Of a stretch of DNA of 58,706 nt, positions 21,265 to 58,706 are shown piece by piece. Within the stretch, counting starts at the first letter, position 1. Every line of letters begins with the position of its first letter. The stretch spans positions 1-58,706 of the forward strand of contig CBDCYW010000025.1 of assembly GCA_965224245.1 (NCBI GenBank), written 5' to 3'. A model generated the notes under the pieces. The model worked only from the letters and a program-made list of their open reading frames with translations. It was not told the DNA's origin and searched no databases. The position numbers and the translations under genes were made by a program. The stretch comes from Candidatus Eiseniibacteriota bacterium (GTDB taxonomy: Bacteria; Eisenbacteria; RBG-16-71-46; CAZAMP01).

Positions 21265-21543
21265 ATGAGCATCGAGATCGACGACGTCCTCTACTACTCC
21301 GCAGCAGAGGTCTCCGAGAGACTAGGGATCTCCCGACAGACGCTGTGGCGATGGCGACGGGAGGGCAAGATTCCTGCCGGCCATCGTTTCCGTGATCGCC
21401 GCGTGCTCTTCACGGGCCAGGAAGTTGAAACGATCCGGGAGTTCGCTACTCGCGTCGAGCCCATTGGACGCGGCGACCACACTCAGCTAGGTCTCTTCCG
21501 ACGCCGAGCGGACGCGGATAGCGACCGGGAGCGCGAACGATGA
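21265..21543 (+). CDS. MerR/excisionase-like HTH regulator
   Basis: YSAAEVSERLGISRQTLWRWRREGKIP; ATGA overlap with the next gene. Confidence 0.85.
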   Translation: MSIEIDDVLYYSAAEVSERLGISRQTLWRWRREGKIPAGHRFRDRRVLFTGQEVETIREFATRVEPIGRGDHTQLGLFRRRADADSDRERER

Positions 21544-26991: not shown

Positions 26992-27008
26992 CGATACAGG
27001 GAGATACC

Positions 27009-27821
27009 ATGGCAACTATCAAGGATGCCTTGCGGAGCGTGGAAGAGGACGAGAGCTACCGGCACATCGTCAGTATCTCGGGCGGCAAGGACTCGGCTGC
27101 TCTCGCGATCTACCTCAAGGAACGTTACCCCACCATCCCAGCCGAGTACGTCTTCTGCGATACAGGTAGCGAGCTCCCCGAGACCTACGACTACCTTCAA
27201 CGGCTCGAGGCCCTACTCGGCCAGCCCATTGCTCGCCTCTCCGCGCTTGACAGGCTGGGAGTCCGCAGAAAGTCCACCAGAACACCGTTTGACATCTGGC
27301 TCAACGAAGTCTATGGCGGCTTCCTGCCCAACCCACGCTCACGCTGGTGCACGCGCGCCCTAAAGATCGAACCCTTTGAGGCATATGTCGGCCAGGATTC
27401 AGCATTCAGCTACATCGGCATTCGGGGAGACGAAAGCCGCGAAGGTTATCGCGCATCAAAACCACCTGTCATTTCGCAGCGGCGCAACATCATCCCCGTC
27501 TATCCGTTCAAGGATGATCGCTTAGGACTCCAAGACATTCAACAGATCCTGCGGCGAGCCGGCATTGGCTTTCCCGACTACTATCGGTGGCGCTCCAGAT
27601 CCGGATGCTACTTCTGTTTCTACCAACAGCTGGGCGAGTGGCAGAGGCTCGCCAAGGAACATCCCGACCTCTATGAGAAAGCCAAGAAGTACGAGAAGAC
27701 CGACGGTAATCGACCGTTCACTTGGATCGAAGGACGCACGCTTTCTGAAATCGTGGCCATGCCGCCGCGCCCGCTACCTGATGCAGACAATACTGAGGGA
27801 TGTGCCGTTTGCCACCTCTAG
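27009..27821 (+). CDS. sspD: PAPS reductase-family protein (SspD-like)
   Basis: SISGGKDS, DTG.ELPETY, RWCTR.LKI.PF, RSRSGCYFCFYQ, C-terminal CAVCHL. Confidence 0.88.
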   Translation: MATIKDALRSVEEDESYRHIVSISGGKDSAALAIYLKERYPTIPAEYVFCDTGSELPETYDYLQRLEALLGQPIARLSALDRLGVRRKSTRTPFDIWLNEVYGGFLPNPRSRWCTRALKIEPFEAYVGQDSAFSYIGIRGDESREGYRASKPPVISQRRNIIPVYPFKDDRLGLQDIQQILRRAGIGFPDYYRWRSRSGCYFCFYQQLGEWQRLAKEHPDLYEKAKKYEKTDGNRPFTWIEGRTLSEIVAMPPRPLPDADNTEGCAVCHL

Positions 27822-27946
27822 CGCTCAGCTTTGTCCTGCTCGGGATGATCTCATCTGGCAGGACCGATCGGATTGACGGAATGCCATCGTTCCGCTGCCC
27901 GGTATGCCCAATGTCGGGATTCTACTGCCTGCGTGGAGTGTGAGAC

Positions 27947-37291: not shown

Positions 37292-38242
37292 ATGGTCATT
37301 TTCACGATATTCAACGACAAAGGCGGCGTCGGAAAGACGACGCTCACATTCCATCTCGCCGGCGCCTTTGCTGAAGCTGGCAATCGGGTTCTGGTAGTCG
37401 ACCTGGATCGCCAGATGAACCAGAGCCATCTCTGGCGGGCAGACGCGTTCATCGGCGCCCGGACAATCTACGACGCACTGACCGAGGGGTTAGACGGGGA
37501 GTTTGCTCCGTTGAGCGAAGTCGTCCTGCCTTCCGACGCATTCCCGGATCTCGTCTCAATCGCGCCGGCAAGTCCCCTGCTCGGAGAGAGCCTTTCCACC
37601 ACTCTGTCGGAGAAGCCCGACGCCCAGACCCGCTTGATGAACGCGTTCGAGGACTGGCCGGAGATCAACGATCGATTCGATGTTGTTCTGATCGACACGC
37701 GACCCGATACGGCCATCGCAACCCGCAATGGCATCGCGCTCGCAGATTTCCTTGTCGTGCCCGTCGAGCCCCAGCGCTTCTCAGTGGATGGTATGAAGAC
37801 GGTCCTTCGACTACTCGACGAATACCGCCGCTCCAGAATCTCCCCGAACCTCCAAGCGCGCTTTGTCTTCAACAAGGTCCATCACCGCGCTGACGACCGG
37901 CACTTCATCGAGAGCCTGAGGGACATCGAGAACGTACCCGTTCTCAAGACGTTAATCCCGAACCTCGCCCCGATCGCCCACAGCACCAATCGAAGGGATC
38001 CTGTCCCACTGTGCCTGAGTACTCCCGCCCGCCGGAGACTCCGTCCCGCCATCCACATCCGGACGCTTGCTTCCGAGCTTGCGCAGCTGGCCAATCAGAG
38101 CGGTTGCTTCTCCCCCGTGCGGCCAACGAACCTGAACATCCTTCGGCTGGCCGAGTTCGAGTCAGAACCGCCGAGCGTATTCGGGGAAACTAACAAGATC
38201 CACCAACACGAGCATGCCGACCACACCCTCCAAGAAGCGTAG
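37292..38242 (+). CDS. parA: ParA family ATPase
   Basis: NDKGGVGKTT, LVVDLD.Q.N, FDVVLIDTRP. Confidence 0.92.
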   Translation: MVIFTIFNDKGGVGKTTLTFHLAGAFAEAGNRVLVVDLDRQMNQSHLWRADAFIGARTIYDALTEGLDGEFAPLSEVVLPSDAFPDLVSIAPASPLLGESLSTTLSEKPDAQTRLMNAFEDWPEINDRFDVVLIDTRPDTAIATRNGIALADFLVVPVEPQRFSVDGMKTVLRLLDEYRRSRISPNLQARFVFNKVHHRADDRHFIESLRDIENVPVLKTLIPNLAPIAHSTNRRDPVPLCLSTPARRRLRPAIHIRTLASELAQLANQSGCFSPVRPTNLNILRLAEFESEPPSVFGETNKIHQHEHADHTLQEA

Positions 38243-39137
38243 CAGCCAACGAGACGCCGACGACGTTGTCCGCGGCATTCTCGATCGCCCTTCCGCGATC
38301 GCAGCGCCTCCCGTACGTCACAGTTCCATCGAACATGCGACCGTGCGCGCCACTGCTCGCCGTGATCCCAATAATCGAATCGTCGCGCTCGAGCTGATTG
38401 ACCCCGATCCGGACCAACCTCGCACTGTCATCGAGAACAGCGAGGAGTTTGACGGTCTAGTCTCGTCAGTCCGCGAGCATGGGGTCATCTCGCCAATCAC
38501 CGTACGCTTCATTTCGGAGAACAGCCGCTATCAGATCATCACAGGTGAGCGCCGCTTTCGGGCAGCGCAGCGACTTGGCTTGAGAGAGATCCCAGCTTGC
38601 ATTCGCGAGATTGACGACACGACCAAGGCTGTCGAGCAGCTGGTCGAGAACGTGCAGCGCGAGGACATGAACCCGGTCGAGGAAGCCCTTGCTCTCAACC
38701 GACTGATCGGCGAACCGATCAACCTGACGCACGAAGAGGTCGCCCTCAAGATCGGCAAGAGCCGCGCGTACGTCACGAACATGCTCGCTCTTCCCCGAAA
38801 GCTCACCACCCGTGAACAAGCCAAGCTGCGCCGATGTTCGCCGGCGAACATGCCCGGAAAGTCGCTAATCTTGGAGGCGTTGCAGGCTCCCGACGAAGAA
38901 ACTCGGGCTCAGATCCTATTCGGCCGCATGACCCGCGCCGCTGCACGTACCGCGGTCAGGAAGCGCGCCGGTGGACGACCGGGTTACCCAACCAGGAGCG
39001 TCCCAGTCACGGTTGGTGGCTACACCTACACCATCACCGTCAAGGCCAGGAGAAAGGAACGCCTCCTTGCACAAGACGTCATCGACGCCCTCGACGCGGC
39101 CGTCCTGAAGCTGACTAAGGACGTGTCGGACACCTAA
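38214..39137 (+). CDS. parB: ParB/RepB/Spo0J partition protein
   Basis: PDPDQPR, IITGERRFRA, ENVQREDMNPVEEA, HTH EVALKIGKSRAYV. Confidence 0.92.
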   Translation: MPTTPSKKRSSQRDADDVVRGILDRPSAIAAPPVRHSSIEHATVRATARRDPNNRIVALELIDPDPDQPRTVIENSEEFDGLVSSVREHGVISPITVRFISENSRYQIITGERRFRAAQRLGLREIPACIREIDDTTKAVEQLVENVQREDMNPVEEALALNRLIGEPINLTHEEVALKIGKSRAYVTNMLALPRKLTTREQAKLRRCSPANMPGKSLILEALQAPDEETRAQILFGRMTRAAARTAVRKRAGGRPGYPTRSVPVTVGGYTYTITVKARRKERLLAQDVIDALDAAVLKLTKDVSDT

Positions 39138-43063: not shown

Positions 43064-43687
43064 CTAATCGGCTTGAGGGTTTTCCTCCTCCTTCTTACTC
43101 ACTTCGATCCCTGACCTCAACTCCCGGGGGAGCAAGCTGTCAATCTCTTCGTCCGAGAACGACATCTCGTCGTACTGCCTGATGGCTTCCTGAGCCTTCC
43201 TATATGCCGCAAACGTTGTACTCGGTGCACCCGAGTAGACCGCGTGCAAATCCCCCAGGATAGCATCGCGCCGTGTGCAGATACTCTCAAGGGCCACTTC
43301 GCCAACTCTCAAGTCTGTGATCAGCGCCAAGTACTTTTCGCGAAGAAGCCACAAATCTGCCGCGGCCTGGCGATGCTTCTGTGCAAGTTCACCCAGATCG
43401 TAGTTCTTCGTGTAGGCGTTTAGCACAAGCAACGTGGTCGAGACAATCACACCGATAACCGCGCCAATAGGTCCCGCGCCAAGGATGGCAGCGACGAAAC
43501 CGGCCGCTGTGACGGAAGAGAGGATGATCTGCCAAAGCTTGATCGTGGACAGTCGAGAGAGAAGGATGTCCGCACATTTCTCATGGGTCTTGTGAGAGTA
43601 GACAACGCGACCGTAGCACTCCCGCAGCTGACCTTCGATCAGCACGTGAGGCCTCTGAACCTGGTCACGCGGGGTAGGAGGTACCAA
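43064..43687 (-). CDS. SLATT-domain 2TM effector
   Basis: QLRECYGRVVYSHKTHEK, two TM helices, LREKYLALI.D. Likely TTG start at 43687 overlapping the NTase. Confidence 0.85.
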   Translation of the reverse strand: MVPPTPRDQVQRPHVLIEGQLRECYGRVVYSHKTHEKCADILLSRLSTIKLWQIILSSVTAAGFVAAILGAGPIGAVIGVIVSTTLLVLNAYTKNYDLGELAQKHRQAAADLWLLREKYLALITDLRVGEVALESICTRRDAILGDLHAVYSGAPSTTFAAYRKAQEAIRQYDEMSFSDEEIDSLLPRELRSGIEVSKKEEENPQAD

Positions 43688-44549
43688 AGATCTCCCTCCA
43701 CTTCTGCTTCGCTGACCACTCCCGCTTGGGATCGGCGATCTCGTGCTGGATCGCCTCGCAAGCCACGTTGTAGCAGCGTTTCGCCTTGTACTGGAACTGT
43801 CCCTTGCCTCCGTAGACCCACTGGCCACTTCCTGGCGCTTTCCAGAACTCCTGTTCGGTGTTCTGAGCGGCGATGTGCTCGAAGAAGTCGCGGCACATGA
43901 AGTCGTAGTAAAGGTACGACTTGTCTCGGTGCTCCCAGTCGATGATGAACTGGTAGGCTAGCGTGTCGATGAGAAGACCACCGATCGGCACGGCCCAATT
44001 GCTCCTCCAGGCTCGCATCATTCGGCACAGCGGAATCAGGTTGCCATTGCAGGCGTTGTTTCTCGTTCGGATGGCTTCGATCTCTGGTTTGGGGTTCGTC
44101 GTCTTCCAGCTTCCTCCTCCATTGGAGTCGGGATATGTGTAGCTGTCATCCTTGTTGACGAATGCAGGGACAAGCTCGAACGTGATGCCGTCGTCGAAGG
44201 GAATCAGAATGACCTGACCGTCAGCCCCGATGTTCGAGACCGAGTACGTCTTCTTTACGGAGTTGCGCACTGCCTGCAGGAGTGCGGATTGCCCGTTGCC
44301 GTTGTACTGGTCGTACCGCTGATAAACAGAGTATGGCAACTGGAAGATCAGGTCCACGTCGCTGGTTCCATGGATCGCCGTGTTCCGTCCGTAAGAACCG
44401 ACGTATAAGCTATGGGACGTTTCCGAAGTTGTGCTCCAGAAATCCGTGTTCAGGCGCTTCGTGATGGCCTTGCATCGTCGAGAAATAGAATCGCCATTCT
44501 TGACGTTGATGTTGTTGCAGAATACCCTGAACCAATCGGCGAGCCCCAT
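43665..44549 (-). CDS. SMODS/cGAS-DncV-like nucleotidyltransferase (CD-NTase)
   Basis: VGSYGRNTAI..TSDVDL, DGQV, FELVPAF, W..TNP, W..IFG. Confidence 0.9.
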   Translation of the reverse strand: MGLADWFRVFCNNINVKNGDSISRRCKAITKRLNTDFWSTTSETSHSLYVGSYGRNTAIHGTSDVDLIFQLPYSVYQRYDQYNGNGQSALLQAVRNSVKKTYSVSNIGADGQVILIPFDDGITFELVPAFVNKDDSYTYPDSNGGGSWKTTNPKPEIEAIRTRNNACNGNLIPLCRMMRAWRSNWAVPIGGLLIDTLAYQFIIDWEHRDKSYLYYDFMCRDFFEHIAAQNTEQEFWKAPGSGQWVYGGKGQFQYKAKRCYNVACEAIQHEIADPKREWSAKQKWREIFGTSYPA

Positions 44550-45259: not shown

Positions 45260-45889
45260 ATGAGGTCATCTATGACCCGAAAAACACAAGACAGGTCATC
45301 CGGACCGAAACGGCAGCTCAAGGCATCCCAGTTCTCCCTGAAACCGGGCGAACTGCGGAAGCTCATCTACGCAGCCGAGAGCCCTCGTGACCGCTGCCTG
45401 ATCCGGACCTTGGCCGAGACCGGGATCCGCCGAGCCGAGCTCGCCGCCCTGGACGTCCGCGACGTCGACCTCGAAGTCCGGCGGTTGACGATCCGATCCG
45501 GCAAGGGCGGCAAGGAGCGCGTCGTGCCGATCACCCAGGAACTCGCGTCGGACCTGCGGTTCCTGATCGGCCGGAAACAGACCGGACCGATCTTCGTGTC
45601 TCTCCAGAAGGGGCCGCTTCAGATCCGGCAAATCAATCGGGTCGTGCGCGCCCTCGGTGAAGCGGCCGGGGTCAAGAACCCCAACCCGGCCTCCGGTGGG
45701 GCCGTCACCTGCCATCTCTTCCGGCACTCGTTCGCGAGGCTGTGGAAGCAGCGCGGCGGGGACATCGAGAGCCTCTCGCACATCCTCGGGCACTCGTCGT
45801 CCGCCACCACAGTCGACCTCTACGGCACGCAGTCGATCGACGACGTGCACGCCAACTACGAACGGATCATGGAGGACTCACCGTCGTAG
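45260..45889 (+). CDS. Tyrosine recombinase, catalytic domain only (resolvase-like)
   Basis: TGIRRAEL, GKGGKER, HLFRHS, LGHSS..T...Y: full R-K-HxxR-H-Y set. Confidence 0.92.
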   Translation: MRSSMTRKTQDRSSGPKRQLKASQFSLKPGELRKLIYAAESPRDRCLIRTLAETGIRRAELAALDVRDVDLEVRRLTIRSGKGGKERVVPITQELASDLRFLIGRKQTGPIFVSLQKGPLQIRQINRVVRALGEAAGVKNPNPASGGAVTCHLFRHSFARLWKQRGGDIESLSHILGHSSSATTVDLYGTQSIDDVHANYERIMEDSPS

Positions 45890-45929
45890 GCCGCTATCCG
45901 CCCTTGACTAATCAGCTAACCCAATCCCC

Positions 45930-46901
45930 ATGCGTCAATGCAAACCCGCCCGCCGGTCACCACTCGCGCGCGACAGCCGAGGCCTTGAAGACCCCCATCT
46001 CAAGCCGAGTCACCGGCTCATCCTCGAGCTTCTCTACCACTACCGGTACGCCACCGCCGAGATCTTGGGCATCGCCTACGAAGCCGAGCGTGGCCGCGGG
46101 CAAAAGAAGGTCCGGAACGAACTCTCTACCCTCTTTCACTCGGGCCTTGTGGAGCGGACGTTCTTTCCTACAGGCCCGGCCGGCCACGGCTCGGAACAGT
46201 ACGTCTACACGCTGACCACGCACGGTGCTCGCGCCCTCCTCGACCCTGAGACGTTCACGGAGGTGCGGACTCGGGTCTACAACCGCTCGCGTGAGAAATC
46301 GGTGGCCACAATCCCCCACCGGATCGCGATCTCCACTCTGCAGCTCATCCTCGACCATGGAGAGCCCGGGCCCGCTCTCGTGGACTTCACCTCGGATCAG
46401 GAGGATCCGAGCGCGCGTATCCGCGTAAGACTCGACGGTCGCTTCATGACGTTTCAGCCAGATGCCACTGCCGTTCTCGAGTGGCCGAATGGCAAACGAA
46501 GTGCGTTCTTCTTTGAGATCGAGCGTACGCACAAGAACCGCGCTCGGACAGACCGTCGCTTTCGAGCCTACCAGTCCTACCTCGTCGAGCATCTTCAGGG
46601 GATGCGGGAGCGCCTCGATGTCCACGGTGCGGTTGCCGTGTTCGTTGGCGACACGAGCAAGCGCGCTAGCCGGCTTCAACGCATTGCTCGTCAAGCGCTC
46701 GGCGACCTCAGTCGACGCCGAAGGCCACTCCTGTACTTCTGGCACATGGAGACGTGGTATCGCAGCAACGTGGTCCAGGACCCGCGCGATCCAGACAGAG
46801 TCGCGCGCCGTCAAAGCCTCGCGCACCCTCGCGACGTGCTGGCTGGAAGCTCAGTACTGACCCTCGAAGCGAAGGAGAGACCGCTGTTTATGGCCACCTA
46901 A
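45930..46901 (+). CDS. Replication-relaxation (Replic_Relax/MOBC-like) protein
   Basis: N-terminal wHTH, YTLT..GA, PHRIAI, PDA...FFEIER. True start uncertain. Confidence 0.75.
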   Translation: MRQCKPARRSPLARDSRGLEDPHLKPSHRLILELLYHYRYATAEILGIAYEAERGRGQKKVRNELSTLFHSGLVERTFFPTGPAGHGSEQYVYTLTTHGARALLDPETFTEVRTRVYNRSREKSVATIPHRIAISTLQLILDHGEPGPALVDFTSDQEDPSARIRVRLDGRFMTFQPDATAVLEWPNGKRSAFFFEIERTHKNRARTDRRFRAYQSYLVEHLQGMRERLDVHGAVAVFVGDTSKRASRLQRIARQALGDLSRRRRPLLYFWHMETWYRSNVVQDPRDPDRVARRQSLAHPRDVLAGSSVLTLEAKERPLFMAT

Positions 46902-50032: not shown

Positions 50033-50155
50033 GTTGAGAGCGAGCTGAACGAACACTGTCAGTAACGCTTTCTCGTCGCGCGGTCCCGAACCAGAACATC
50101 TACATGGTCGGGGTTGCCAACTCCACGGCGCTCTCCACAACGAAAGGAGTCTGTA

Positions 50156-50341
50156 ATGAAAGACGCGAAGCGTCTTCGTGACGCCGTCGTCAGAAACGAC
50201 CGTGAGGTCGAGGTCACCCCCGATGGCACGGTGCTCTTTCCGGACGAAGCACCCGCCAGCGATGACAAGCCTGAGCGTGACGCACCGCCGAAGGCGACCA
50301 AGCGAAAGGCGACGAAGCTCTCGGACCATGTATTCGGCTAG
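50156..50341 (+). CDS. 61-aa peptide ending ...KLSDHVFG; candidate conjugated modifier/precursor
   Basis: Strong AAGGAG RBS, C-terminal Gly, directly upstream of E2 and JAB-E1. Confidence 0.7.
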   Translation: MKDAKRLRDAVVRNDREVEVTPDGTVLFPDEAPASDDKPERDAPPKATKRKATKLSDHVFG

Positions 50342-50407
50342 GACCCACCCAGGAGGCAGAGATGGTGGCCGGGCAGCCTCTGCAGGCTCGGCCGCCACTG
50401 AACGCAC

Positions 50408-50785
50408 ATGTGGTACGAGGAGAACCGATGGCGCATGCGTCTCGTAGCGGAACAGGAGGTGATGCGAGATCGGTTTCCTGCCTTCCGCCTCGTGCGCGCC
50501 TCGAACGGCCAGCTCCGGTGGAGCGGAACTCTCTCACCAGTTCGTGGAGTCACATTCCGTGTGTCTCTTCTCTACCCGAGTACATATCCGTACGCAGCGC
50601 CGGTATTCCGCGTTGACGCGCCTTGCCTTAAACGAGGTGCTCCCCACCGGTTCGCAAACGGAAGTCTCTGCGTTCACAAGAATCGTTGGGACCCAGCTAC
50701 CGGTACTGCGGCGAGCTGCGTACCGCTCCTATCCGCCTGGCTGCTCGCTTACGTAGAGTGGTGCCGAACCGGGGAGGTCTTCTGA
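50408..50785 (+). CDS. Prokaryotic E2 (UBC-fold) protein
   Basis: W.G.L, YPSTYPYAAP, PHRFANGSLC (active-site Cys), W.PA: matches the UBC pattern FP..YP..PP...HPN...G.IC...W.P. Confidence 0.85.
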   Translation: MWYEENRWRMRLVAEQEVMRDRFPAFRLVRASNGQLRWSGTLSPVRGVTFRVSLLYPSTYPYAAPVFRVDAPCLKRGAPHRFANGSLCVHKNRWDPATGTAASCVPLLSAWLLAYVEWCRTGEVF

Positions 50786-52398
50786 TGCCAACCGCCTTGA
50801 TGATCACCGAGATCGTCCTACGGGCGATCAAGGCTGAATGCCTGAGGCACCCAACGGTTGAGACTGGCGGCGTCTTGCTCGGAAACCGTGTCGGCACCGA
50901 CTATGTTGTTCCAGCAGTGATTCCACCGGGTCCGAGATCCCGCCGCGCACGCACCCTCTTCTCCCCAGACACGGACTTCCAGCAACCGATCCTGGACTTC
51001 GCGCACGAGTACTTCAACGGTCTCAACTACAAGGGAGAATGGCACCGACATCCTGGCCAGAACGACTATCCGAGCGCAAAAGACCTCAGTACGGCACGGG
51101 AGATCCTCTCCAGCCCCGAGTGGGACATCTCGGAGGCCGTCTTCCCCATCGCAATCGTGGACGACGGTGAGGTTCGGATCCGTGCGTACGAGATCACCCG
51201 GGACGATCCCCACTTCAGAGAGATCCCGCTATCTGTTCTGCCGGCCAGTGATCCCCGACTCACGGCAGCCCTCGGTCTCCAGCCTTCCGAGGCCACCGGT
51301 ACCCTCTTGACCACTGCGCAGCTCGTGCGCGATGCCAGCGTGAGAGCGACGGCGACCGACGTCTACGGACTCGCGCGACGGGACGAGCACCTTCTTCAGC
51401 TTCTCTCCCTCCACTCGGACTACTCGGGGTCCCTCCAAGCAGTCGGTCGCCTTGCCACTGGCAAGAGCACCGACGACGTCGGCATACCGCTGGTCGCGGG
51501 AGACTCGCACACATCGTTCCTGGCTCCCGACACGCTCCCCACCCCAACCAACATCGAGGTCATCGATACCGGCGCTGAAATGGCGGCCCGCCGCATCGGT
51601 CTCGTGGAGGAGCACCAGGTCGCCTCCAAGCGTGTCGCCGTGTTCGGGGTTGGAAGTCTCGGCTCCGGCCTAGCACTACTCCTGGCGCAGGCAGGCGTTG
51701 GCCACTTCGACGTCTACGACTGCGGTCGTCTCGATGCCGCAAATCTGAGTCGTCACGCGTGTGATCTGTTCGATCTAGGCAGATCGAAAGCGCTCGCCGT
51801 TTCCGAACTCCTCAGACGCCGTACGGCCCAGGCTCAGGGACACGATGTCGATCTCAGCACCATCGATGACCTCGAGTCTCTCGTCGACCCATCCGACCTC
51901 TTGATCGCAACGACCGACTCGCCCGAGGTTCAGTTCCGACTCAACGAGGCATCCGTGAAGACCGGCACCCCGGGGATCTTCGTCGGCGCGTATGAACAAG
52001 CAACCGCCGGGGAGGTCATCGTCGTTCGGCCCGGCGGACCATGCTTCTTCTGCTCAGTCGGTTTCCGCGCCGATATCGGCCCCGATCTTACGCCGAAGGA
52101 GAGGCGGCAAGCCTATGCCGACGCTAACAGCCGCCAGCTGAATGCGGAGCCCGGTCTAGGCACCGACATCAGCTATCTCTCTTCCGTGGCTGCGTCGTTC
52201 GCACTCGCAATCCTCGACCCGACCGGTAGACGCGACGTCCTGACGGAACCCAACCGCCAATTCACATTGGTTCATGGCGGAAGTCGCCCCTCCGGTCAGC
52301 ACGCTGATCTGTTTGATAAGCCGTTTGACTTGGTTTCCGCCCGCGTTGTTCGAAAGACACCTTGTGAGATCTGCGGCTTCCAATCCGAGGGGAAGTAG
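50785..52398 (+). CDS. JAB peptidase - ThiF/E1 fusion
   Basis: ETGGVLLG...WHRHP.....PS..D (JAMM); GVGSLGS, NLSRH, PCFFC/PCEIC. TGATG coupling to E2. Confidence 0.9.
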   Translation: MPTALMITEIVLRAIKAECLRHPTVETGGVLLGNRVGTDYVVPAVIPPGPRSRRARTLFSPDTDFQQPILDFAHEYFNGLNYKGEWHRHPGQNDYPSAKDLSTAREILSSPEWDISEAVFPIAIVDDGEVRIRAYEITRDDPHFREIPLSVLPASDPRLTAALGLQPSEATGTLLTTAQLVRDASVRATATDVYGLARRDEHLLQLLSLHSDYSGSLQAVGRLATGKSTDDVGIPLVAGDSHTSFLAPDTLPTPTNIEVIDTGAEMAARRIGLVEEHQVASKRVAVFGVGSLGSGLALLLAQAGVGHFDVYDCGRLDAANLSRHACDLFDLGRSKALAVSELLRRRTAQAQGHDVDLSTIDDLESLVDPSDLLIATTDSPEVQFRLNEASVKTGTPGIFVGAYEQATAGEVIVVRPGGPCFFCSVGFRADIGPDLTPKERRQAYADANSRQLNAEPGLGTDISYLSSVAASFALAILDPTGRRDVLTEPNRQFTLVHGGSRPSGQHADLFDKPFDLVSARVVRKTPCEICGFQSEGK

Positions 52399-52405
52399 GA
52401 GCCCA

Positions 52406-53239
52406 ATGGCCGCATCCGACTGGCTTGCCGATGACGAGGGGAACCTCACGCCCGAGGCGGCGCGAGCTGTCGAGCGACTGGGCGCCCGTGCGATTGATCA
52501 GCCGCCGCCGGTGGCCCAGGGTTGGCGTCCGTCTCCCCGGACGATTCTTCTCACTCTTGTCGGGTTCACGGCTTTGAATCTGTTGATCGCGCTCGTTCCG
52601 AACGAGCGCGAACGCGAGACCCATAGCATCTTACCGGTCACTACCCCAGAGCCGCCCGCGCGGCCGACTACGTCACGTGCGTCTTCCCGACCGGAGCCAG
52701 GGCTGGCGGCCTCCGAATCGCACCGTCGCACTCCCCCCTCCCCTGCTCTCCCTCAACGATCACGAAGCGCCCTCACTTCGGCAGAACGACCAACCACTCA
52801 CGCATCGACAGCACAAAACGGTGTCGTGACTGCGTCCATGCCCGGGCGGGCGGGTGAGATCTTCGGAAGTCTTGTCCGGCTGCGCACACGACCCAGTCTG
52901 CGCGCGCGGATCCAGCAGACGCTTGCTCCCCGGACCACAGTCCGAGTCCTGGATCAACAAGATGGGTGGTGCAAGCTGCAGCTCCCTGGAGGGCGAACTG
53001 GCTGGACCTTCGGAGCGTATGTGCGTGGGCCGGGCCACTTCGGTCTCGGGCCTGCAGTCCTCACAAAGACGCTCGTCGCGAGCACGACTCGGCTGACATC
53101 AGGAACCAAGGTGCTCGTAGAGCGCCGAGCCGGTCCGGGCAAGGTCCAACTGCGGCTACCGGACGGGACACGGCTAATCGCACCGGACAACAGTCTTCGC
53201 CTCGTGGACGGCGACGGGAACGGATATGGGCACCAATAG
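52406..53239 (+). CDS. Single-pass membrane protein with Pro-rich linker and bacterial SH3 domain
   Basis: One TM segment; VRLRTRPS...VRVLDQQDGWCKL...GRTGW..GAYV. Confidence 0.8.
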   Translation: MAASDWLADDEGNLTPEAARAVERLGARAIDQPPPVAQGWRPSPRTILLTLVGFTALNLLIALVPNERERETHSILPVTTPEPPARPTTSRASSRPEPGLAASESHRRTPPSPALPQRSRSALTSAERPTTHASTAQNGVVTASMPGRAGEIFGSLVRLRTRPSLRARIQQTLAPRTTVRVLDQQDGWCKLQLPGGRTGWTFGAYVRGPGHFGLGPAVLTKTLVASTTRLTSGTKVLVERRAGPGKVQLRLPDGTRLIAPDNSLRLVDGDGNGYGHQ

Positions 53240-53939
53240 GACCGCCATCGGCCTACTCATCCTCGCCATGACCGCGCTGGCGCCGTGCGCATTGGTTCGT
53301 GAGCCCTCCCCGCAACCGCAGCTAGTGACGACCGCTACACGCTCCTACACGACTCCGTGGGTTGGGCTACCTGTCAGTCTTCCACCACTGACGCCGCCGA
53401 TACCGAATGCGACTGTTCCAACGGACCCGCAAGCGCTGCCAGGCGCGTTGCGCGAGTACCGTGGGGGTGTTCATGAGGGCGTTGACTTCCGTTGCGCTCC
53501 AGGCACACCCGTTCGCGCTGCGCTCGCTGGGTGGGTGCTGAGCGTCGAGGACCGACAAGACCTACCCCTTGAGATTCGGCGCGAGCTCCTCGAGCAGTGC
53601 TCGGCGCTGGGTCGAACGCCACAGCTGGTCCTCGACATACTCCACGGAAGGCGACTCGTGCTCTACCACGGCATGTTCGATGGAAACCTCCTCACGACCA
53701 GCTACTCCCACGCGGCGGAGATCCGCACCGATCTCGTCCCGGGTGCCTGGGTCGAACCCGGCGAGATCATTGCGTGGACCGGGGCATCAGGCACGAGTCA
53801 CGCCTACAAGGCCGACCATTGGTCCGAACTACACTTCGAACTCCGCATCAACGGTCTACCGGTAGGCCTCGGTCTGTCCAGCAACGAAGCCGGCGCGCTA
53901 TATCGATCCGCGCTCACAGATGAGGTGGTCGGGCAATGA
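53226..53939 (+). CDS. M23 family peptidase (exported)
   Basis: HEGVDF, GTPVRA, YSH, G.SG, ELHFE (first His of HxH replaced). Confidence 0.85.
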   Translation: MGTNRTAIGLLILAMTALAPCALVREPSPQPQLVTTATRSYTTPWVGLPVSLPPLTPPIPNATVPTDPQALPGALREYRGGVHEGVDFRCAPGTPVRAALAGWVLSVEDRQDLPLEIRRELLEQCSALGRTPQLVLDILHGRRLVLYHGMFDGNLLTTSYSHAAEIRTDLVPGAWVEPGEIIAWTGASGTSHAYKADHWSELHFELRINGLPVGLGLSSNEAGALYRSALTDEVVGQ

Positions 53940-54204: not shown

Positions 54205-54732
54205 ATGGCTTACGTAGTACCTCCTCGCAGCCGCGTCATCGATAGCTGGAGTACGACTGTCCGCTTCGCAGGTGATCGCGCGGATCAATTCACATCCGAC
54301 CTGTACGGTGATCTTGAAGACGCCGGCGTTCGCTACTTTCGACTCCAAGTGCGCCTGACCCGCGCCGGCGGGCTTCTGAGTGCCGTGCGGCGCGAGCACA
54401 TGGTTGTGACGCTCCCGGAGTTTCCGAGGCTCTACCAGCTGGTTTCGGTCCGCCCGATCGGGCGGCACCTCAACGTGTACCGGATCACCGCAGATAAGAC
54501 GAGTCGAACCGATGACCTCCTGGCGCGTCTCGCCGGAACGCTTCGCCGCAGCCGTCCGTTGACGCCTTACGAGTTTCTTCGCGAGCAGGATGTCCGAGCG
54601 TGGGTCTCGGTCGTCCATGGCACGATCGTCGCGCGACTCGCGCCCCTCCTCGAGGAACTGGGCGAGGACGCCACGTATCTCACCCGCGTCCGGGCTGTGC
54701 GGTTTGAACCGGTCGACGTGCGAGCAGAGTGA
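54205..54732 (+). CDS. Hypothetical protein
   Basis: GAGGAGG RBS; co-oriented within the operon. Confidence 0.65.
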   Translation: MAYVVPPRSRVIDSWSTTVRFAGDRADQFTSDLYGDLEDAGVRYFRLQVRLTRAGGLLSAVRREHMVVTLPEFPRLYQLVSVRPIGRHLNVYRITADKTSRTDDLLARLAGTLRRSRPLTPYEFLREQDVRAWVSVVHGTIVARLAPLLEELGEDATYLTRVRAVRFEPVDVRAE

Positions 54733-54753
54733 GCCAACGATGATGAGGGACCA

Positions 54754-56361
54754 ATGGCAGATGGCATGAGCTGGGTCATACTGCTGGCCCTCGCCCCCCT
54801 ACTTTGGAGAGTCACTGACTGGTTGCGTGAGCGGCGCTACCTCGTACACCGAGGCCGGCATCTGCAACTCAGTCGCCATCGGCGCCGTTTCGAGTCCGTA
54901 ACCCAGGAGATCACGAACCATCTGGGCTACCTTATCCCCTCAGTGATGAGCAGGAACGAACTCGAGGCTCTCGTTCGGGCAGGCATGAGCCCCGAGGCAC
55001 TCCGCGAAGAGCTGGCGCAGCGATGTGGCGAGGCGAATGGAGTAATCCTCGGTGACACGCCAATCGGTCCAACCTCCCTCCCTGTCCATCTTCCGGAAGA
55101 GTTTCGGAAACGACATCTCTACTGCATCGGGAAGTCCGGATACGGCAAAACGACGACGCTGCAGCGTCTCATCGTCCAGGATCTGCATGCAGGGGCCGGG
55201 CTCGGCGTCGTTGCTCCCGAGTACGAGATGGTCGACCAGGAGATTCTCCCCTTCATACCGGAGGACCGGTACGACGACGTGATCGTCGTGAATCCAGCGG
55301 ACCCCCACTGCCCACCGCTCAACCCGCTCCACCTCCACCCTGGCGAAGACCCGGATCGTGCGATCGACGAGACGTACGTTGTCCTCCAACGCGCATTCGG
55401 AGACGAGTCCTCCGCTGCGGCACCTCGAATGCAGACATTGCTTCGGAACGCGCTGTACGCCCTCATGCCTATACCAGGAACGACGCTCTGCGACATTCCA
55501 CGCCTGCTGGATAGAGCAGATGGTTCCTTCCGCGAATGGGTCAGCGAGCGATGCAACGATGAGCAGGCTCGCCATTTCTGGCGATCCTCCTATTCTCGGT
55601 TCCCCCGCGATTCTCATCTATCCCTGATGAACCGTCTGACTCCCCTCCTCCGGCCTGCCGTGGTCAGACGTGTACTTTGCCGGCCGGAGGGATCGCTCAA
55701 CATGCGATCCGCCATGGACCAGGGCAAAGTGGTCCTCTTCTCGTTGAGTGACGGCATCCTTGGCCAGACGAATGCTGAGATTCTCGGACAGCTAGTCGTT
55801 GCTCGCATCCAACTGGCCGCCATGTCCCGCGCGGACCAACCCAAGGAGGATCGCCGCCCGTTCACGCTCTACTGCGACGAGTTCCAGGCGTGGCTCGGCG
55901 TCACGGGCACGAGCTACGAACGCATCCTCTCGCGTGCCCGCAAGTACAACCTGCGACTCGTCCTTGCCCACCAGCAAACAGGTCAGATTGGCCAATCCAT
56001 GTTGCGAGAGATACTGGGAAACGTGTCGACGACCCTGCTGTTCTACCTGTCGGCTTCTGACGCTAGGCGCCTCGGCAAGGAGATGGTCGGCGAGGTCGAC
56101 GGCAGGTCCGAAACGTTGGATCCACAGGAGCTCCTCTCGCTCCGCATCGGAGAAGCATGGTGCAAGATCGGCCGGACGGTGCTGTACGTGCGGACGCGCC
56201 CTCCCCTGGAAGGAGGCTCCCCAGCCAGCCGGCAGGAGGTCCTGCGCCGCTCACGCCAGCTCTACGGCGGCATGCCGAGCGCCCGAGCGGTCGGACCGGA
56301 CCGCACTTCATCCGACGACACAGCGTGGCTCAGTGACGTGAAAACCGGCACGGTGCTCTGA
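54754..56361 (+). CDS. Type IV coupling protein-like ATPase (VirD4/TraD/HerA-like)
   Basis: N-terminal TM, RHLYCIGKSGYGKTT, LYCDEFQ, ARKY.L.L.LAHQ...Q. Confidence 0.88.
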   Translation: MADGMSWVILLALAPLLWRVTDWLRERRYLVHRGRHLQLSRHRRRFESVTQEITNHLGYLIPSVMSRNELEALVRAGMSPEALREELAQRCGEANGVILGDTPIGPTSLPVHLPEEFRKRHLYCIGKSGYGKTTTLQRLIVQDLHAGAGLGVVAPEYEMVDQEILPFIPEDRYDDVIVVNPADPHCPPLNPLHLHPGEDPDRAIDETYVVLQRAFGDESSAAAPRMQTLLRNALYALMPIPGTTLCDIPRLLDRADGSFREWVSERCNDEQARHFWRSSYSRFPRDSHLSLMNRLTPLLRPAVVRRVLCRPEGSLNMRSAMDQGKVVLFSLSDGILGQTNAEILGQLVVARIQLAAMSRADQPKEDRRPFTLYCDEFQAWLGVTGTSYERILSRARKYNLRLVLAHQQTGQIGQSMLREILGNVSTTLLFYLSASDARRLGKEMVGEVDGRSETLDPQELLSLRIGEAWCKIGRTVLYVRTRPPLEGGSPASRQEVLRRSRQLYGGMPSARAVGPDRTSSDDTAWLSDVKTGTVL

Positions 56362-57239
56362 TGCATAGGCTTACCGATCGCGATCATGAGGTGCTTCTCG
56401 CACTCTGGCGATTCCAGTACCTCTCCGTCGCGCAGATTCAGCGGCTTCTCTTCCCGTCGACTCAGACCGTCAACCGGCGACTCCGGATCCTCTCAAGCGA
56501 AGATTACGTGGAGATCTTCTCTGTGCCTGGTCTACCGGACCGGCTCGTGCGGCTCCGCTCCGCAGGTGCGGCGGTCGTCGCCGGAAGCCTCGAGCTTCCA
56601 CTCGCCGCGACCGGGTGGACAAGAGACCGGGGGCGCCCCAAGGACCACTGGTTCGCCCGCCACTTTCTCCGGATCAGCGACTTCCGCATCGCCCTTCTGC
56701 AGGCATGCCGCTGCGCCCCGGTTCGGCTGCTAGGGTTCATCCCCGAGTACGTCGGCCGAAAGCCGCGCAGCGGAGCCTACCGCAAGTACATACAGGACGT
56801 TGTTGCCGACATCGCTCAGCCGGGGAGCAAGATCTCACACACTCCGGATGGGGTGTTCGCGCTGTCGCGTGCCGAGCGAGCGGGGCTGTTCTTCCTCGAG
56901 GTCGATCGTGGAACCGAGGTGATCTCGCATCCGGCGCGGGGCGTTGGAAAGCTGGTCAGGTTCTACCTGAACGCCATCGCCTCGAGAGCCTTCGAACGCT
57001 ATCAAGAGGATTTCGGAGTGACCTTCGAAGGCTTCCGGATCCTGATCGTCACAAGCACGTTGGCTCGGCTCCGCAACATCCAGGATGCTGCCGCGGCGAT
57101 CTCCTTCGAGCCTTCGAATGCCAAATCGTTGATCTGGATCACAACCGTTGAGGCCACAGAGTGCGCCAACGTGCTGACGGACACGATCTGGCGAACCCTG
57201 GACCCCGAAGATCGGGGGGGCTATGCGATCGTTGCCTGA
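56361..57239 (+). CDS. Replication-relaxation (Replic_Relax/MOBC-like) relaxase
   Basis: LTDRD..L..L...L...Q, RRL..L, H.L, PDG.F...FFLEVDRGTE; TGATG coupling to the coupling-protein gene. Confidence 0.88.
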   Translation: MHRLTDRDHEVLLALWRFQYLSVAQIQRLLFPSTQTVNRRLRILSSEDYVEIFSVPGLPDRLVRLRSAGAAVVAGSLELPLAATGWTRDRGRPKDHWFARHFLRISDFRIALLQACRCAPVRLLGFIPEYVGRKPRSGAYRKYIQDVVADIAQPGSKISHTPDGVFALSRAERAGLFFLEVDRGTEVISHPARGVGKLVRFYLNAIASRAFERYQEDFGVTFEGFRILIVTSTLARLRNIQDAAAAISFEPSNAKSLIWITTVEATECANVLTDTIWRTLDPEDRGGYAIVA

Positions 57240-57493
57240 TCAGCGTGTAATCGAGGTGTATTCGCAGGAGCTCGGAACTGCATCTCGGCTGTATTGGCGA
57301 GAGTACACCGGCGGTCCCGTAACTGCTGATGGTGACATGGATTCAGTCTCCTATTCGCGTCCAACTATCGCGTGTTCCGTACTCTCGTTCGTCAGATCTC
57401 GTTGTGACCCACCTGGGGCGCTAGCTCCTGCCGGCCTACGTCAGTGTGGTCGAGCGAGCCCGAACTTGCCCTCTCGACAAGGGAGCTGACACC

Positions 57494-57694
57494 ATGGCCA
57501 TTGAGCTGGATCGGACAAGGATGCTTCTGACGTCTCGCGAGGCCGCCCGGGCCCTGGCGATCTCACCGCGGAAGCTGTGGGAGCTGACGAAGTGCGGTGC
57601 CATCCCCTGCATCCGAATAGGGCGCACCGTTCGATACGATCCTCACGACCTGCGTGACTACATCGCGCGGCAGAAGACGAAACGGAGCGCGTGA
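57494..57694 (+). CDS. Excisionase (HTH_17)
   Basis: LLTSREAARALAISPRKLW...IP.IRIGR.VRY...DL..YI. Confidence 0.88.
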   Translation: MAIELDRTRMLLTSREAARALAISPRKLWELTKCGAIPCIRIGRTVRYDPHDLRDYIARQKTKRSA

Positions 57695-57696
57695 AC

Positions 57697-58706
57697 ATGG
57701 CCACGATCTTCAAGCGCGAAGGGCGGAGCCCCTACTATATCGTCCAGTGGTTCGACCACAGCGGGCGGCGCCGGCAGAAGTCGAGTCGAACCACCGATAG
57801 GCGGGCTGCTCAGCGGCTGGCCGACAAGCTCGAAAGCGAAGCCATGCTTCGCCGCGAAGGCGTCATCGACGTCCAGGCGGAGCGACTCGCGCAACAAGAT
57901 CGGACCCCGATCCTCGATCACGTCGACACATATCTGAACGAGTGCTCGAACCGCCAGGACAACCCGCGTTTCATCGACGACAAGCGCCGCCATCTGACGC
58001 AGGCGATCGACGACGTCGGTGCGTCGCGGCTGTCCGACCTGACCACGGATCGTGTTCGAGCCTCTCTCGCCCGCTACCACAAGACGAAGGTCTCGGCTCG
58101 CAGCGTCAACATTCGGAGGAACACGCTCGTCGCGTTCCTCAACTGGTGCGTCAAGACCGAGCGAGCAACGAAGAACCCGTTGTCCGCCATCCCGCAGCTG
58201 CGCGAGAAGGCCGACCGGCGCCGGCAACGCCGATCCCTCACTGCCGACGAGGTCAAGCGCCTGCTCGCGGTCGCCGAGGAACGAGGCCGCAAGGCCTGGT
58301 ACCTGGCAGCGCTCCTCGCGGGCATGCGCCGCGGGGACCTGATCCAGTTGTGCTGGGGTGATCTCGACTTTGAAGCCGGCACGATCACAATTCGGAACGG
58401 CAAGAGCCAACGGCTCGGGAAACCCGAAGACGTCATCCCGCTACCACCGGCGCTTGCTCAGGAGTTCCTGCGGATCCGCCCCGATCGTGCCGCAGCCACC
58501 GACCGCGTCTTCCCGACCGCGGTAACCCACAACACGCGGCGAAAGGACTTCACCCGGGCCGAGATCCCGCTCGAGGACGAGAACGGCCGTGTCGTCGATC
58601 TACACGCCCTCAGGACGACGCTCGGAACCTGGTTGGCCATTGAGGGCGTCCCGGCGCAGCACGCGCAGCGAATCCTCCGGCACGAGAACCTGAAGACGAC
58701 GATGCA
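57697..58706 (+). CDS. Tyrosine integrase, 3' end outside window
   Basis: Absent from the ORF track. MATIFKREGRSPYYIVQWFD... AGMRRGDL ... DLHALRTT ... LRHENLKTTM. Confidence 0.93.
   Translation, partial: MATIFKREGRSPYYIVQWFDHSGRRRQKSSRTTDRRAAQRLADKLESEAMLRREGVIDVQAERLAQQDRTPILDHVDTYLNECSNRQDNPRFIDDKRRHLTQAIDDVGASRLSDLTTDRVRASLARYHKTKVSARSVNIRRNTLVAFLNWCVKTERATKNPLSAIPQLREKADRRRQRRSLTADEVKRLLAVAEERGRKAWYLAALLAGMRRGDLIQLCWGDLDFEAGTITIRNGKSQRLGKPEDVIPLPPALAQEFLRIRPDRAAATDRVFPTAVTHNTRRKDFTRAEIPLEDENGRVVDLHALRTTLGTWLAIEGVPAQHAQRILRHENLKTTM

What the first reader, a model, noticed from the sequence alone, without database searches (positions are those of the whole stretch)
50156..52398. Ubiquitination-like module without a ubiquitin fold: 61-aa Gly-terminated peptide + E2 + JAB-E1 fusion
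Seen: a peptide with a strong RBS (MKDAKRLRDAVVRNDREVEVTPDGTVLFPDEAPASDDKPERDAPPKATKRKATKLSDHVFG), a stand-alone E2 with an intact Cys, and a translationally coupled JAMM+ThiF fusion. Known: Bil/Bub systems pair E1/E2/JAB with a beta-grasp Ubl, and type II CBASS Cap2/Cap3 conjugate the C-terminal Gly/Ala tail of the CD-NTase. Here neither a Ubl nor a cyclase is in the operon. The peptide looks too short and low-complexity for a beta-grasp (helix, hairpin, disordered linker), and its H.FG end resembles CD-NTase conjugation tails. Inference: a peptide-tagging system in which a largely disordered Pup-like modifier is activated by E1, passed through E2 and removed or matured by JAB; alternatively a RiPP-like pathway. 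I do not recognise it as a characterised system.
Basis: partly seen in the sequence, partly recalled or inferred. Interest (0 to 1): 0.9.

Follow-up and report, generated by a model that had tools for sequence, protein, structure and literature searches.

The report
Tiny foldless ubiquitin-like tag with E2/JAB/E1
A mobile element in a soil-type bacterium carries ubiquitin-style enzymes next to a conserved 55-60 residue protein that has no ubiquitin fold but ends in a ubiquitin-like glycine tail, which looks like a new, minimal kind of protein tag.

Summary
At 50156-52398 there is a 61-aa ORF ending in ..HVFG-stop, a stand-alone E2 with its Cys, and a JAB-E1 fusion.

The small ORF is a real gene family. 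A profile of four copies found about 55 short relatives with two conserved blocks, LRRLRDAV..REVEV.PDG.V and TKLAPRTFG, joined by a variable Pro/Glu-rich linker. After the Gly come 0 to about 20 unconserved residues, or a whole fused domain, as in ubiquitin precursors.

In 206 genomes of the phylum, the peptide profile and the E2 profile hit the same 8 genomes, with the peptide just upstream of E2. AlphaFold gives a helix plus a short hairpin and no beta-grasp. A co-fold with controls (0.69 against 0.01) puts the Gly tail in the E1 adenylation pocket and the hairpin on the E1 sheet.

The E2 belongs to the Pfam family 'E2-CBASS'. The E1 has no loop Cys but an invariant Tyr, as in Bub. No cyclase, Ubl or DUF6527 belongs to the operon. 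The module sits in an integrative element, followed by an SH3 membrane protein, an ATPase, Replic_Relax and an integrase.

I read it as a new variant of bacterial ubiquitin-like conjugation with a minimal modifier. Its target and biological role are unknown. I found no paper or database name for it.

The parts
50143..50149 (+). Shine-Dalgarno-like AAAGGAG, 6 nt before the peptide ATG
   Evidence: read from the sequence
50156..50341 (+). 61-aa modifier candidate: helix (2-12), hairpin (REVEVTPDGTV, 16-27), Pro/Asp/Lys-rich linker, tail TKLSDHVFG ending exactly at Gly61
50408..50785 (+). stand-alone E2 (125 aa); H80 and catalytic Cys88 invariant in 10 of 10 relatives, H90 in 9 of 10; its relatives carry Pfam PF26395 'E2-CBASS'
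50785..51290 (+). JAB/JAMM peptidase domain of the fusion (residues 1 to about 168; E26, H87, H89, S97, D100)
51291..52398 (+). E1 part of the fusion: conserved ~95-aa N-terminal domain plus ThiF/UBA5-like adenylation domain (GxGxxG 288-293, R323, D378, zinc CxxC 420/423 and 527/530, invariant Tyr444, no loop Cys)
52406..53239 (+). membrane protein with a conserved cytoplasmic N-terminal motif (WLADDEGNLxPE), one TM helix and an SH3_3 domain; follows E1 in all relatives with enough sequence
53226..53939 (+). M23 peptidase, overlaps the SH3 gene; present in the window and L033 only
54205..58704 (+). element backbone: 175-aa protein, TrwB/TraD-HerA-like ATPase (54754-56361), Replic_Relax (56361-57239), tyrosine integrase (57691 to the contig end)

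Best explanation
The 61-aa protein is a minimal ubiquitin-like modifier without a beta-grasp fold. It has a short helix, a beta-hairpin, a disordered spacer and a conserved tail, TKL..RTFG.

Steps inferred from the evidence:
1. In most relatives the tail is made with extra C-terminal residues or a fused domain. The JAB peptidase (or the E2 itself, as in E2-CBASS) cuts these off after the Gly. The window's copy is already mature.
2. The E1 binds the hairpin by strand pairing and threads the tail into its ATP site, where it adenylates Gly61.
3. The activated peptide passes to Cys88 of the E2, perhaps via the invariant Tyr444 of the E1, as in Bub.
4. The E2 attaches it to an amine on an unknown target. 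JAB can reverse this.

The five-gene module (peptide, E2, JAB, E1, SH3 membrane protein) travels in integrative elements. Its role is open. I estimate about 50% defence against phages or other invading DNA, like every tested bacterial E1/E2/JAB system. I estimate about 25% a function in transfer or establishment of the element, including anti-defence, and about 25% something else.
For: 1. Family. 55 short relatives share two conserved blocks and a variable linker of 15-30 residues. Tail counts are T 52, K 48, L 52, R 43, T 48, F 53 and G 51 of 55.

2. Precursor pattern. After the Gly there are 0 residues in 2, 1-3 in 26, 4-30 in 19 and more than 30 in 8 of 55, with no conservation. In L013 the peptide ends FGA-stop and the fused-type domain continues in the same frame.

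3. Linkage. The peptide profile and the E2 profile hit the same 8 of 206 genomes, one place each, with the peptide just upstream of E2. The same order is seen in L005, a MAG titled only 'bacterium' whose phylum I did not determine.

4. Fold. The model has a helix at 2-12, two 2-residue strands and coil elsewhere, at pLDDT 66.2.

5. Co-fold of E1 170-537 with the peptide. Score 0.69, best of 3 controls 0.01. That mark was reached by 116 of 157 solved complexes and 2 of 215 mismatched pairs. The runs agree in at least 95% of contacts, and the partner's pLDDT is at least 63. Peptide 53-61 touches the Gly loop 288-293 and 376-378 (which includes D378). Peptide 16-27 touches E1 490-523.

6. Intact catalytic residues in JAB, E1 and E2.

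7. Precedents read in papers. The BubCD JAB cuts after a Gly, and the Bub E1 uses a Tyr (PMC11601596, parts 1-2 of the text). Cap2 adenylates a disordered cGAS tail (10.1101/2022.03.31.486616, passages). The C-terminal helix, sheet and Gly of CdnG bind an E2 of the same Pfam family, which cuts after the Gly (PMC12948482, parts 1-2).
Against: - No experiment exists. No RNA run holds the locus, so expression is untested.
- E1-Ubl and E1-tail complexes are solved, so the co-fold pass may reflect likeness to them. My own alignments were used, so the calibration counts hold only roughly.
- One related contig (L010) has a DNA methylase rather than a peptide gene in the 809 nt upstream of its E2.
- Distant Chloroflexi relatives (L006-L009) have E2, E1 and JAB but no detectable peptide.
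- No target, E3 or effector is identified.
- The E1 has no canonical catalytic Cys. The Tyr route is an analogy resting on position only.
- Elements with a 44-58% identical ATPase lack the module, so it is not needed for the backbone.
Confidence: 0.62

Rival explanations
1. The peptide is a private partner of the enzymes, not a transferable tag. As in E2-CBASS, the E2 cuts after the Gly and becomes covalently linked to the peptide. E1 and JAB set or reset that state. The peptide-E2 adduct acts as a switch or sensor, and no third protein is modified.
For: The E2's relatives carry the Pfam family 'E2-CBASS'. In that system the E2 cleaves the cyclase after a C-terminal Gly and links to it without an E1 (PMC12948482, parts 1-2). 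The peptide's helix, strands and Gly tail parallel the cyclase's C-terminal E2-binding motif described there. No target or E3 gene is evident.
Against: Unlike E2-CBASS, an E1 with all adenylation residues is always present. The co-fold places the tail in the E1 rather than only at the E2. The peptide profile shows no sequence likeness to any solved chain, best E 1.4.
Confidence: 0.17
2. It is a peptide natural-product pathway. The E1-like enzyme adenylates the C-terminus of a ribosomal peptide for a chemical change, as MccB or PaaA do. E2 and JAB act as carrier and leader or follower peptidase, and the product acts outside the cell.
For: The E1 matches MccB at 1.1e-6. It has no catalytic Cys. 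The substrate is a short peptide with a variable follower sequence. The neighbours include an exported SH3 protein and an M23 peptidase.
Against: UBA5 and Cap2 match better than MccB. In the model the E1's N-terminal domain makes no contact with the peptide. No transporter, immunity or tailoring gene is conserved. An E2 with an invariant Cys and a JAB are hallmarks of conjugation. A review of ThiF-like RiPP enzymes does not contain the words JAB, JAMM or E2-like (PMC12250964, word search only).
Confidence: 0.08
3. The small ORF is only a regulatory leader or upstream ORF of the E2 operon. The enzymes act on something encoded elsewhere, for example the CBASS cyclase 5.6 kb away.
For: The ORF is short and partly low in complexity. 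A SMODS cyclase ending ..IFGTSYPA lies in the same window.
Against: Conservation is at the amino-acid level in two blocks across about 55 clusters that are less than 50% identical to one another. Both blocks contact E1 in the co-fold. The cyclase is on the other strand behind an integrase, has its own SLATT effector, and the four related loci scanned with Pfam (L001, L003, L004, L005) gave no SMODS hit.
Confidence: 0.03

Closest known systems
E2-CBASS (type II 'short' CBASS: CdnG cyclase plus stand-alone E2; PMC12948482)
   Same: The E2's relatives carry the same Pfam family, PF26395. The profile matches the solved 162-aa chain 8hsb_B, titled 'Type VI secretion protein | E2', at 3.3e-7; that this is the E2-CBASS enzyme is my guess from the title. 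The substrate motif has the same layout: a helix, beta-strands and a conserved C-terminal Gly with removable residues after it.
   Different: There is no cyclase or effector in the operon, and the motif is a free 55-60 aa protein rather than the end of an enzyme. An E1 and a JAB are present, which E2-CBASS lacks. There is no sequence likeness between the peptide and any solved chain.
Type I Bub (BubAB, BubCD, BubE; PMC11601596, PMC11601603)
   Same: It has a JAB-E1 fusion. The E1 lacks a crossover-loop Cys and has an invariant Tyr. The E2 active site has the form x-H (C-x-H here, S-x-H in Bub). The precursor is cut after a Gly.
   Different: The E2 uses Cys, not Ser. The modifier has no beta-grasp domain and is not fused to the E2. 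There is no DUF6527 protease. BubCD did not appear among the solved-structure hits at E<=1e-3. JAB and E1 are separate genes in the relatives.
Type II CBASS Cap2/Cap3 (10.1101/2022.03.31.486616; PMC10097602, seen in the search listing only)
   Same: A non-ubiquitin substrate is recognised through a disordered tail ending in a small residue. PADLOC Cap2-type and Cap3-type models give the best matches to the E1 and JAB parts, at 2e-23 and 6.6e-19.
   Different: The E1 and E2 are not fused. The E1 lacks the catalytic Cys of Cap2. The substrate is a dedicated mini-protein, not the cyclase.
Pup / PafA / Dop of actinobacteria (recalled, no call)
   Same: It uses a modifier of about 60 aa that is largely disordered, has a conserved C-terminal motif, and is matured at its C-terminus.
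   Different: The chemistry and enzymes are entirely different: a glutamine-synthetase-like ligase acting on a Glu side chain, against E1/E2 acting on a Gly carboxylate. No PafA or Dop homologue was seen in the window's neighbouring genes.
6A-MBL anti-phage system (NCBIfam NF058523)
   Same: It gives the best NCBIfam hit of the JAB-E1 protein, 1.2e-33.
   Different: The score is 116.6 bits against a cut-off of 320. 6A has a triple E2-E1-JAB fusion and a metallo-beta-lactamase gene (PMC1779556, table row 6a). Neither is present here.

Membership tests
Type II CBASS (Cap2/Cap3) | CD-NTase cyclase and effector in the same operon | tested here: not met
   No SMODS hit in the operon or in the four related loci scanned (L001, L003, L004, L005). 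The nearest cyclase is 5.6 kb away on the other strand with its own SLATT_4 effector.
Type II CBASS (Cap2/Cap3) | E2-E1 fusion with a catalytic Cys in the E1 crossover loop | tested here: not met
   The E2 is a separate gene. 10 of 14 E1 relatives have no Cys between the two CxxC motifs, and none is conserved.
E2-CBASS | E2 of Pfam family PF26395 | tested here: met
   All 37 of 37 relatives carry PF26395 as precomputed. The Atlas names it 'E2-CBASS'. The family is not in the local Pfam copy, so the window's own protein was not scored against it.
E2-CBASS | clade G/H cyclase with a C-terminal E2-binding motif; no E1 | tested here: not met
   There is no cyclase in the operon, and an E1 is always present.
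Type I Bub | beta-grasp Ubl fused to the E2 | tested here: not met
   The AF2 model of the peptide has one helix and a short hairpin. The peptide and the E2 are separate genes.
Type I Bub | E2 with catalytic Ser | tested here: not met
   Cys88 is present in 10 of 10.
Type I Bub | JAB-E1 without a loop Cys, with an invariant loop Tyr | tested here: inconclusive
   The fusion is present in the window only. Tyr444 is present in 14 of 14 and no Cys is conserved. The equivalence to BubCD Y370 rests on position in the sequence, not on a structure.
Type I Bub | DUF6527 (BubE) serine protease | tested here: not met
   No such Pfam hit among 15 window proteins and 39 ORFs of related loci.
Bil (BilABCD) | [quoted passage not shown] | tested here: not met
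   The E1 has a single adenylation domain, with UBA5 as the best solved match.
6A-MBL | NCBIfam NF058523 above its cut-off; MBL partner gene | tested here: not met
   116.6 bits against a cut-off of 320, and no MBL gene.
MccB-type RiPP adenylation | N-terminal peptide-clamp domain binding the precursor; no E2 or JAB | tested here: inconclusive
   The E1 has an extra N-terminal domain of unknown fold that makes no confident contact with the peptide in the co-fold. An E2 and a JAB are present.
Ubiquitin-like modifiers in the wide sense (C-terminal Gly activated by an E1) | conserved C-terminal Gly exposed by processing and bound in the E1 adenylation site | tested here: met
   Gly in 51 of 55, with a variable extension after it. 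The tail sits in the E1 pocket in the co-fold with controls. This is a prediction only; the chemistry cannot be tested with these tools.

The most novel reading that the evidence does not exclude
This is a third kind of protein modifier, beside beta-grasp Ubls and Pup. It is a roughly 55-residue 'hairpin plus tail' mini-ubiquitin: the free-living counterpart of the E2-binding end of E2-CBASS cyclases. It keeps only the two elements that an E1 and an E2 need to see.

Integrative elements would use it to tag host or invader proteins. In some elements it is made as a fusion with a SAM-lyase-like anti-restriction domain, which the JAB would release. That would make the module part of an establishment or anti-defence programme rather than a defence system.
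Probability: 0.3. Interest if true: 0.9.

Novelty: new variant of a known kind. Interest (0 to 1): 0.78.

Why it matters
Every bacterial E1/E2 conjugation system studied so far moves either a beta-grasp protein (Bil, Bub) or the enzyme that the system regulates (CBASS). Here the thing moved seems to be a dedicated mini-protein reduced to a hairpin and a Gly tail. This bears on two questions: how little of ubiquitin an E1 and an E2 need to recognise, and how ubiquitin-like tags may have arisen from the tails of other proteins.

The system is small (about 2.2 kb for the peptide, E2 and JAB-E1) and has clear mutant predictions (G61, C88, Y444, JAB E26/H87/H89). That makes it directly testable in E. 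coli, and it could serve as a compact tagging tool.

It also shows a ubiquitin-like module as a fixed partner of a membrane SH3 protein inside integrative elements. In the papers I read I did not see that context treated in any detail for such systems.

Tried and rejected
Searches that gave little or nothing:
- The single JAB-E1 protein in genome contigs gave no relative.
- Two alignments were too diverse for pattern scans; smaller ones worked.
- The metagenome scan with the E2 profile gave one short contig.
- Viral contigs gave no peptide and only two weak generic ThiF hits, so this is not a phage gene set.
- The peptide has no family in Pfam, PADLOC, PHROGs or NCBIfam.
- The Atlas look-up of the peptide gave only scores of 0.77-0.78, below the tool's lead level.
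- No RNA holder is listed among the sequencing runs, and I did not lay reads.
- The promoter scan found no sigma-70-like site, and the terminator-like sites all lie inside genes.
- No tRNA gene lies in the window.

Ideas rejected:
- The CBASS cyclase in the window as the substrate. It lies on the other strand, is complete as a type I system, and the four related loci scanned gave no SMODS hit.
- The 24 long profile hits as family members. All 4 that were tested are TPR proteins, and none of the 24 has the tail.
- The module as an obligatory core of the ATPase/Replic_Relax elements. Six loci with 6-10 kb of upstream sequence lack it.

Other points:
- The Chloroflexi relatives gave no conserved small ORF.
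- Paper searches for a description of such a peptide system found none. The supplements of the Bub and Bil papers were not opened, and the supplements of bioRxiv preprints are closed, so a listing of such operons in a table could have escaped me.
Full report
**What is there**

The window is a whole 58.7-kb contig of a 6.9-Mb genome. The related loci L001 and L003, and the named peptide clusters, also come from Eisenbacteria MAGs.

These genes lie on the plus strand:
- A 61-aa ORF at 50156-50341, with AAAGGAG 6 nt before the ATG. It ends ..TKLSDHVFG-stop.
- A 125-aa E2 at 50408-50785.
- A 537-aa JAB-E1 fusion at 50785-52398. Its ATG shares one base with the E2 stop codon.
- A membrane SH3_3 protein at 52406-53239, starting 7 nt after the E1 stop.
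- An overlapping M23 peptidase at 53226-53939.
- A 175-aa protein, a TrwB/TraD-HerA-like ATPase, a Replic_Relax protein, and a tyrosine integrase cut by the contig end.

**The enzymes look active**

- JAB: E26, H87-x-H89, S97 and D100 are present.
- E1: the Gly loop 288-293, R323, D378 and two CxxC pairs are invariant in 14 relatives. The best solved matches are UBA5 (3e-12), then Cap2, MoeB and MccB.
- E1 loop: between the two CxxC pairs no Cys is conserved; 10 of 14 relatives have none. Tyr444 is present in 14 of 14. In BubCD, the JAB-E1 fusion of Bub systems, the loop likewise has no Cys, and an invariant Tyr carries the Ubl as an oxyester (PMC11601596, parts 1-2). From my recalled numbering of UBA5, Tyr444 lies about where its catalytic Cys250 would be. 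That is a lead, not a test.
- E2: its PH..GS.C aligns with the HPN..GS.C of eukaryotic E2s. H80 and C88 are present in 10 of 10 relatives and H90 in 9 of 10.
- E2 family: all 37 relatives in the large protein collection carry Pfam PF26395, which the Atlas names 'E2-CBASS'. That family is missing from the local Pfam copy. This explains why my own scan gave only a weak UQ_con hit.

**The small ORF is a gene family**

I first found copies upstream of the E2 in related loci. I then searched a profile of four copies against 1.84 billion representatives. This gave 84 hits at E<=1e-3.
- 24 are long proteins matched only in the helical N-terminal part. None has the tail, and the 4 that I scanned are TPR proteins. 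I count these as false positives.
- 60 are 230 aa or shorter, and 55 of them carry the tail.

The pattern is M-N-E-x-L-R-R-L-R-D-A-V-x-x-R-x-R-E-V-E-V-x-P-D-G-x-V-R-E. A linker of 15-30 residues (median 20) follows, rich in Pro, Glu, Arg and Ala. Then comes (K)-P-T-K-L-A-P-R-T-F-G.

What follows the Gly is not conserved. There is nothing in 2 of 55 (the window and P0043), 1-3 residues in 26, 4-30 in 19, and a domain of about 130 aa in 8. In L013 the peptide ends FGA-stop and that domain continues in the same frame. This is the pattern of ubiquitin-type precursors. It is also the pattern of the Bub Ubl-E2 fusion, which BubCD cuts after a Gly (PMC11601596).

All names that sources give these proteins are 'hypothetical protein'.

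**Linkage**

In 206 genomes of the phylum, the E2 profile hit 9 genomes, 8 of them at E<=1e-30. The peptide profile hit 8 genomes, the same eight, at one place each. In each, the peptide lies directly upstream of the E2. The ninth genome and two further places had only weak E2 hits and no peptide within 1.5 kb. I did not study those.

Beyond that search, L005 has the same order; its record is titled only 'bacterium', and I did not determine its phylum. In one further MAG the peptide lies at the end of one contig (L013), and the extra domain plus E2 lie at the start of another (L004).

There is one counter-example. The 1.5-kb metagenome contig L010 has a DNA methylase gene right before its E2.

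In the relatives, JAB and E1 are separate overlapping genes, so the fusion is a local feature. L001 shows frameshifts in both its peptide and E2 genes, and in L003 the peptide and the following domain read in different frames. I take these as sequencing errors.

**Fold and binding**

With a 47-row alignment, AlphaFold2 gives a helix at 2-12, two 2-residue strands and coil. Mean pLDDT is 66.2 and pTM 0.27. There is no beta-grasp.

I co-folded E1 residues 170-537 with the peptide. The score was 0.69 against 0.01 for the best of three controls. That mark was reached by 116 of 157 solved complexes and 2 of 215 mismatched pairs. The runs agree in at least 95% of contacts, and the partner's pLDDT is at least 63.

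Peptide 53-61 touches the Gly loop, residues 376-378 (which include D378) and the start of the crossover loop. Peptide 16-27 pairs with E1 490-523. So both conserved blocks are explained by E1 contacts, and the variable linker makes none.

Two cautions apply. Similar complexes are solved, so the pass may come from likeness to them. And my own alignments were used, so the calibration counts hold only roughly.

**Comparison with known systems**

- Type II CBASS: there is no cyclase in the operon, the E1 and E2 are not fused, and there is no E1 Cys.
- Bil: there is no beta-grasp and no multidomain E1.
- Type I Bub: it shares the JAB-E1 logic and the Cys-less, Tyr-bearing E1. But the E2 uses Cys, there is no Ubl, and there is no DUF6527.
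- 6A-MBL: it scores far below the NCBIfam cut-off.
- E2-CBASS is the nearest relative of the E2. There the cyclase ends in a helix, a three-stranded sheet and a conserved Gly that bind the E2. The E2 itself cuts after the Gly and becomes linked to the cyclase without any E1 (PMC12948482, parts 1-2).

The peptide looks like that C-terminal motif set free. No sequence likeness supports common descent, however, and here an E1 and a JAB are added.

The 2006 survey of prokaryotic E1/E2/JAB operons (PMC1779556, passages and table rows 6a-6e) lists no type with a small non-Ubl partner.

**Context and role**

Four loci with enough sequence (L001, L003, L004, L005) repeat the order. It runs: peptide, sometimes the extra domain, E2, JAB, E1, SH3 membrane protein, HerA/DUF87-type ATPase, Replic_Relax, integrase. 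L004 has no SH3 hit, and L005 keeps only the N-terminal motif. L033 repeats it through the ATPase and a 175-aa-like ORF; nothing beyond that ORF was scanned there. In L003 the integrase abuts a tmRNA gene.

The SH3 proteins share a cytoplasmic N-terminal motif, W-L-x-D-x-x-G-x-L-x-P-E-x-x-R, ahead of the TM helix. This may be a docking site.

The ATPases next to the module belong to two types that are only 22-25% identical. ATPases 44-58% identical to the window's occur in six loci that lack the module within 6-10 kb upstream. So the module is an exchangeable cassette of such elements, not their core.

The window also holds other systems. There is a type I CBASS pair. There is also a cluster of cysteine desulfurase, DUF4007 and PAPS-reductase genes, which I recall as Dnd/Ssp-like. 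This fits a defence island.

The domain fused to the peptide in 8 relatives folds well (pLDDT 80-90). It resembles phage SAM lyase: 6zm9_A, Z 9.0, rmsd 3.3 over 111 of 129 residues. The next rows score 7.7 and 7.3. It also resembles many small phage proteins. Foldseek gave 34 hits at E<=1e-3, and three of the 50 listed rows are named SAM hydrolase. That hints at anti-restriction, which is an establishment role. I cannot decide between defence and establishment.

**Verdict**

It is a new variant of bacterial ubiquitin-like conjugation, with a minimal, non-beta-grasp modifier family that carries no name in any library or source I could query. No experiment exists. The target and the role are open.

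Noticed in passing
relatives P0021, P0022, P0025, P0036, P0037, P0060; L001 4276-4890; L017 792-1496; L013 5500-6000: In some elements the peptide is fused after ..TFG to a domain of about 130 aa. The domain folds like phage SAM lyase (6zm9_A, Z 9.0; PHROG 3543). In L013 a single in-frame stop separates the peptide from the domain. It may be an anti-restriction cargo released by the JAB.
   Followed up: partly
window 43067-44549 (minus strand): A complete type I CBASS: a SMODS cyclase (PADLOC 1.8e-142) plus a SLATT_4 two-TM effector. It is not linked to the E2/E1 module.
   Followed up: partly
window 21540-36544: A cluster of a cysteine desulfurase, DUF4007, a 1106-aa protein, a PAPS-reductase-like protein and two unknown proteins. 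A 1768-aa protein with a C-terminal FtsK/SpoIIIE domain follows, then ParA and ParB at 37292-39137. It looks like a DNA phosphorothioation (Dnd/Ssp-like) defence island; that name is recalled, not tested.
   Followed up: no
window 52406-52470 and alignment A9: The SH3 membrane proteins that follow E1 share a short cytoplasmic N-terminal motif, W-L-x-D-x-x-G-x-L-x-P-E-x-x-R, invariant in 6 of 6, ahead of the TM helix. It may dock the conjugation enzymes at the membrane.
   Followed up: partly
L006-L009 (Dehalococcoidia / SAR202 MAGs): A distant form of the module. The E2 carries a 100-240 aa N-terminal extension with Cys-x-x-Cys zinc-ribbon-like motifs, followed by E1 and then JAB. No conserved small ORF lies nearby.
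   Followed up: partly
window 45260-46901: A short tyrosine recombinase (209 aa) and a second Replic_Relax gene lie upstream of the module. This may be the remnant of a second, tandem integrative element.
   Followed up: no
L003 10823-12309: The element's integrase lies directly beside a tmRNA gene, a classic island integration site. A tRNA-Lys gene follows.
   Followed up: no
L027-L032 (ATPase loci without the module): Related ATPase and Replic_Relax backbones carry other uncharacterised genes of 250-480 aa with no Pfam family in the slot upstream of the ATPase. They may be alternative cassettes.
   Followed up: partly
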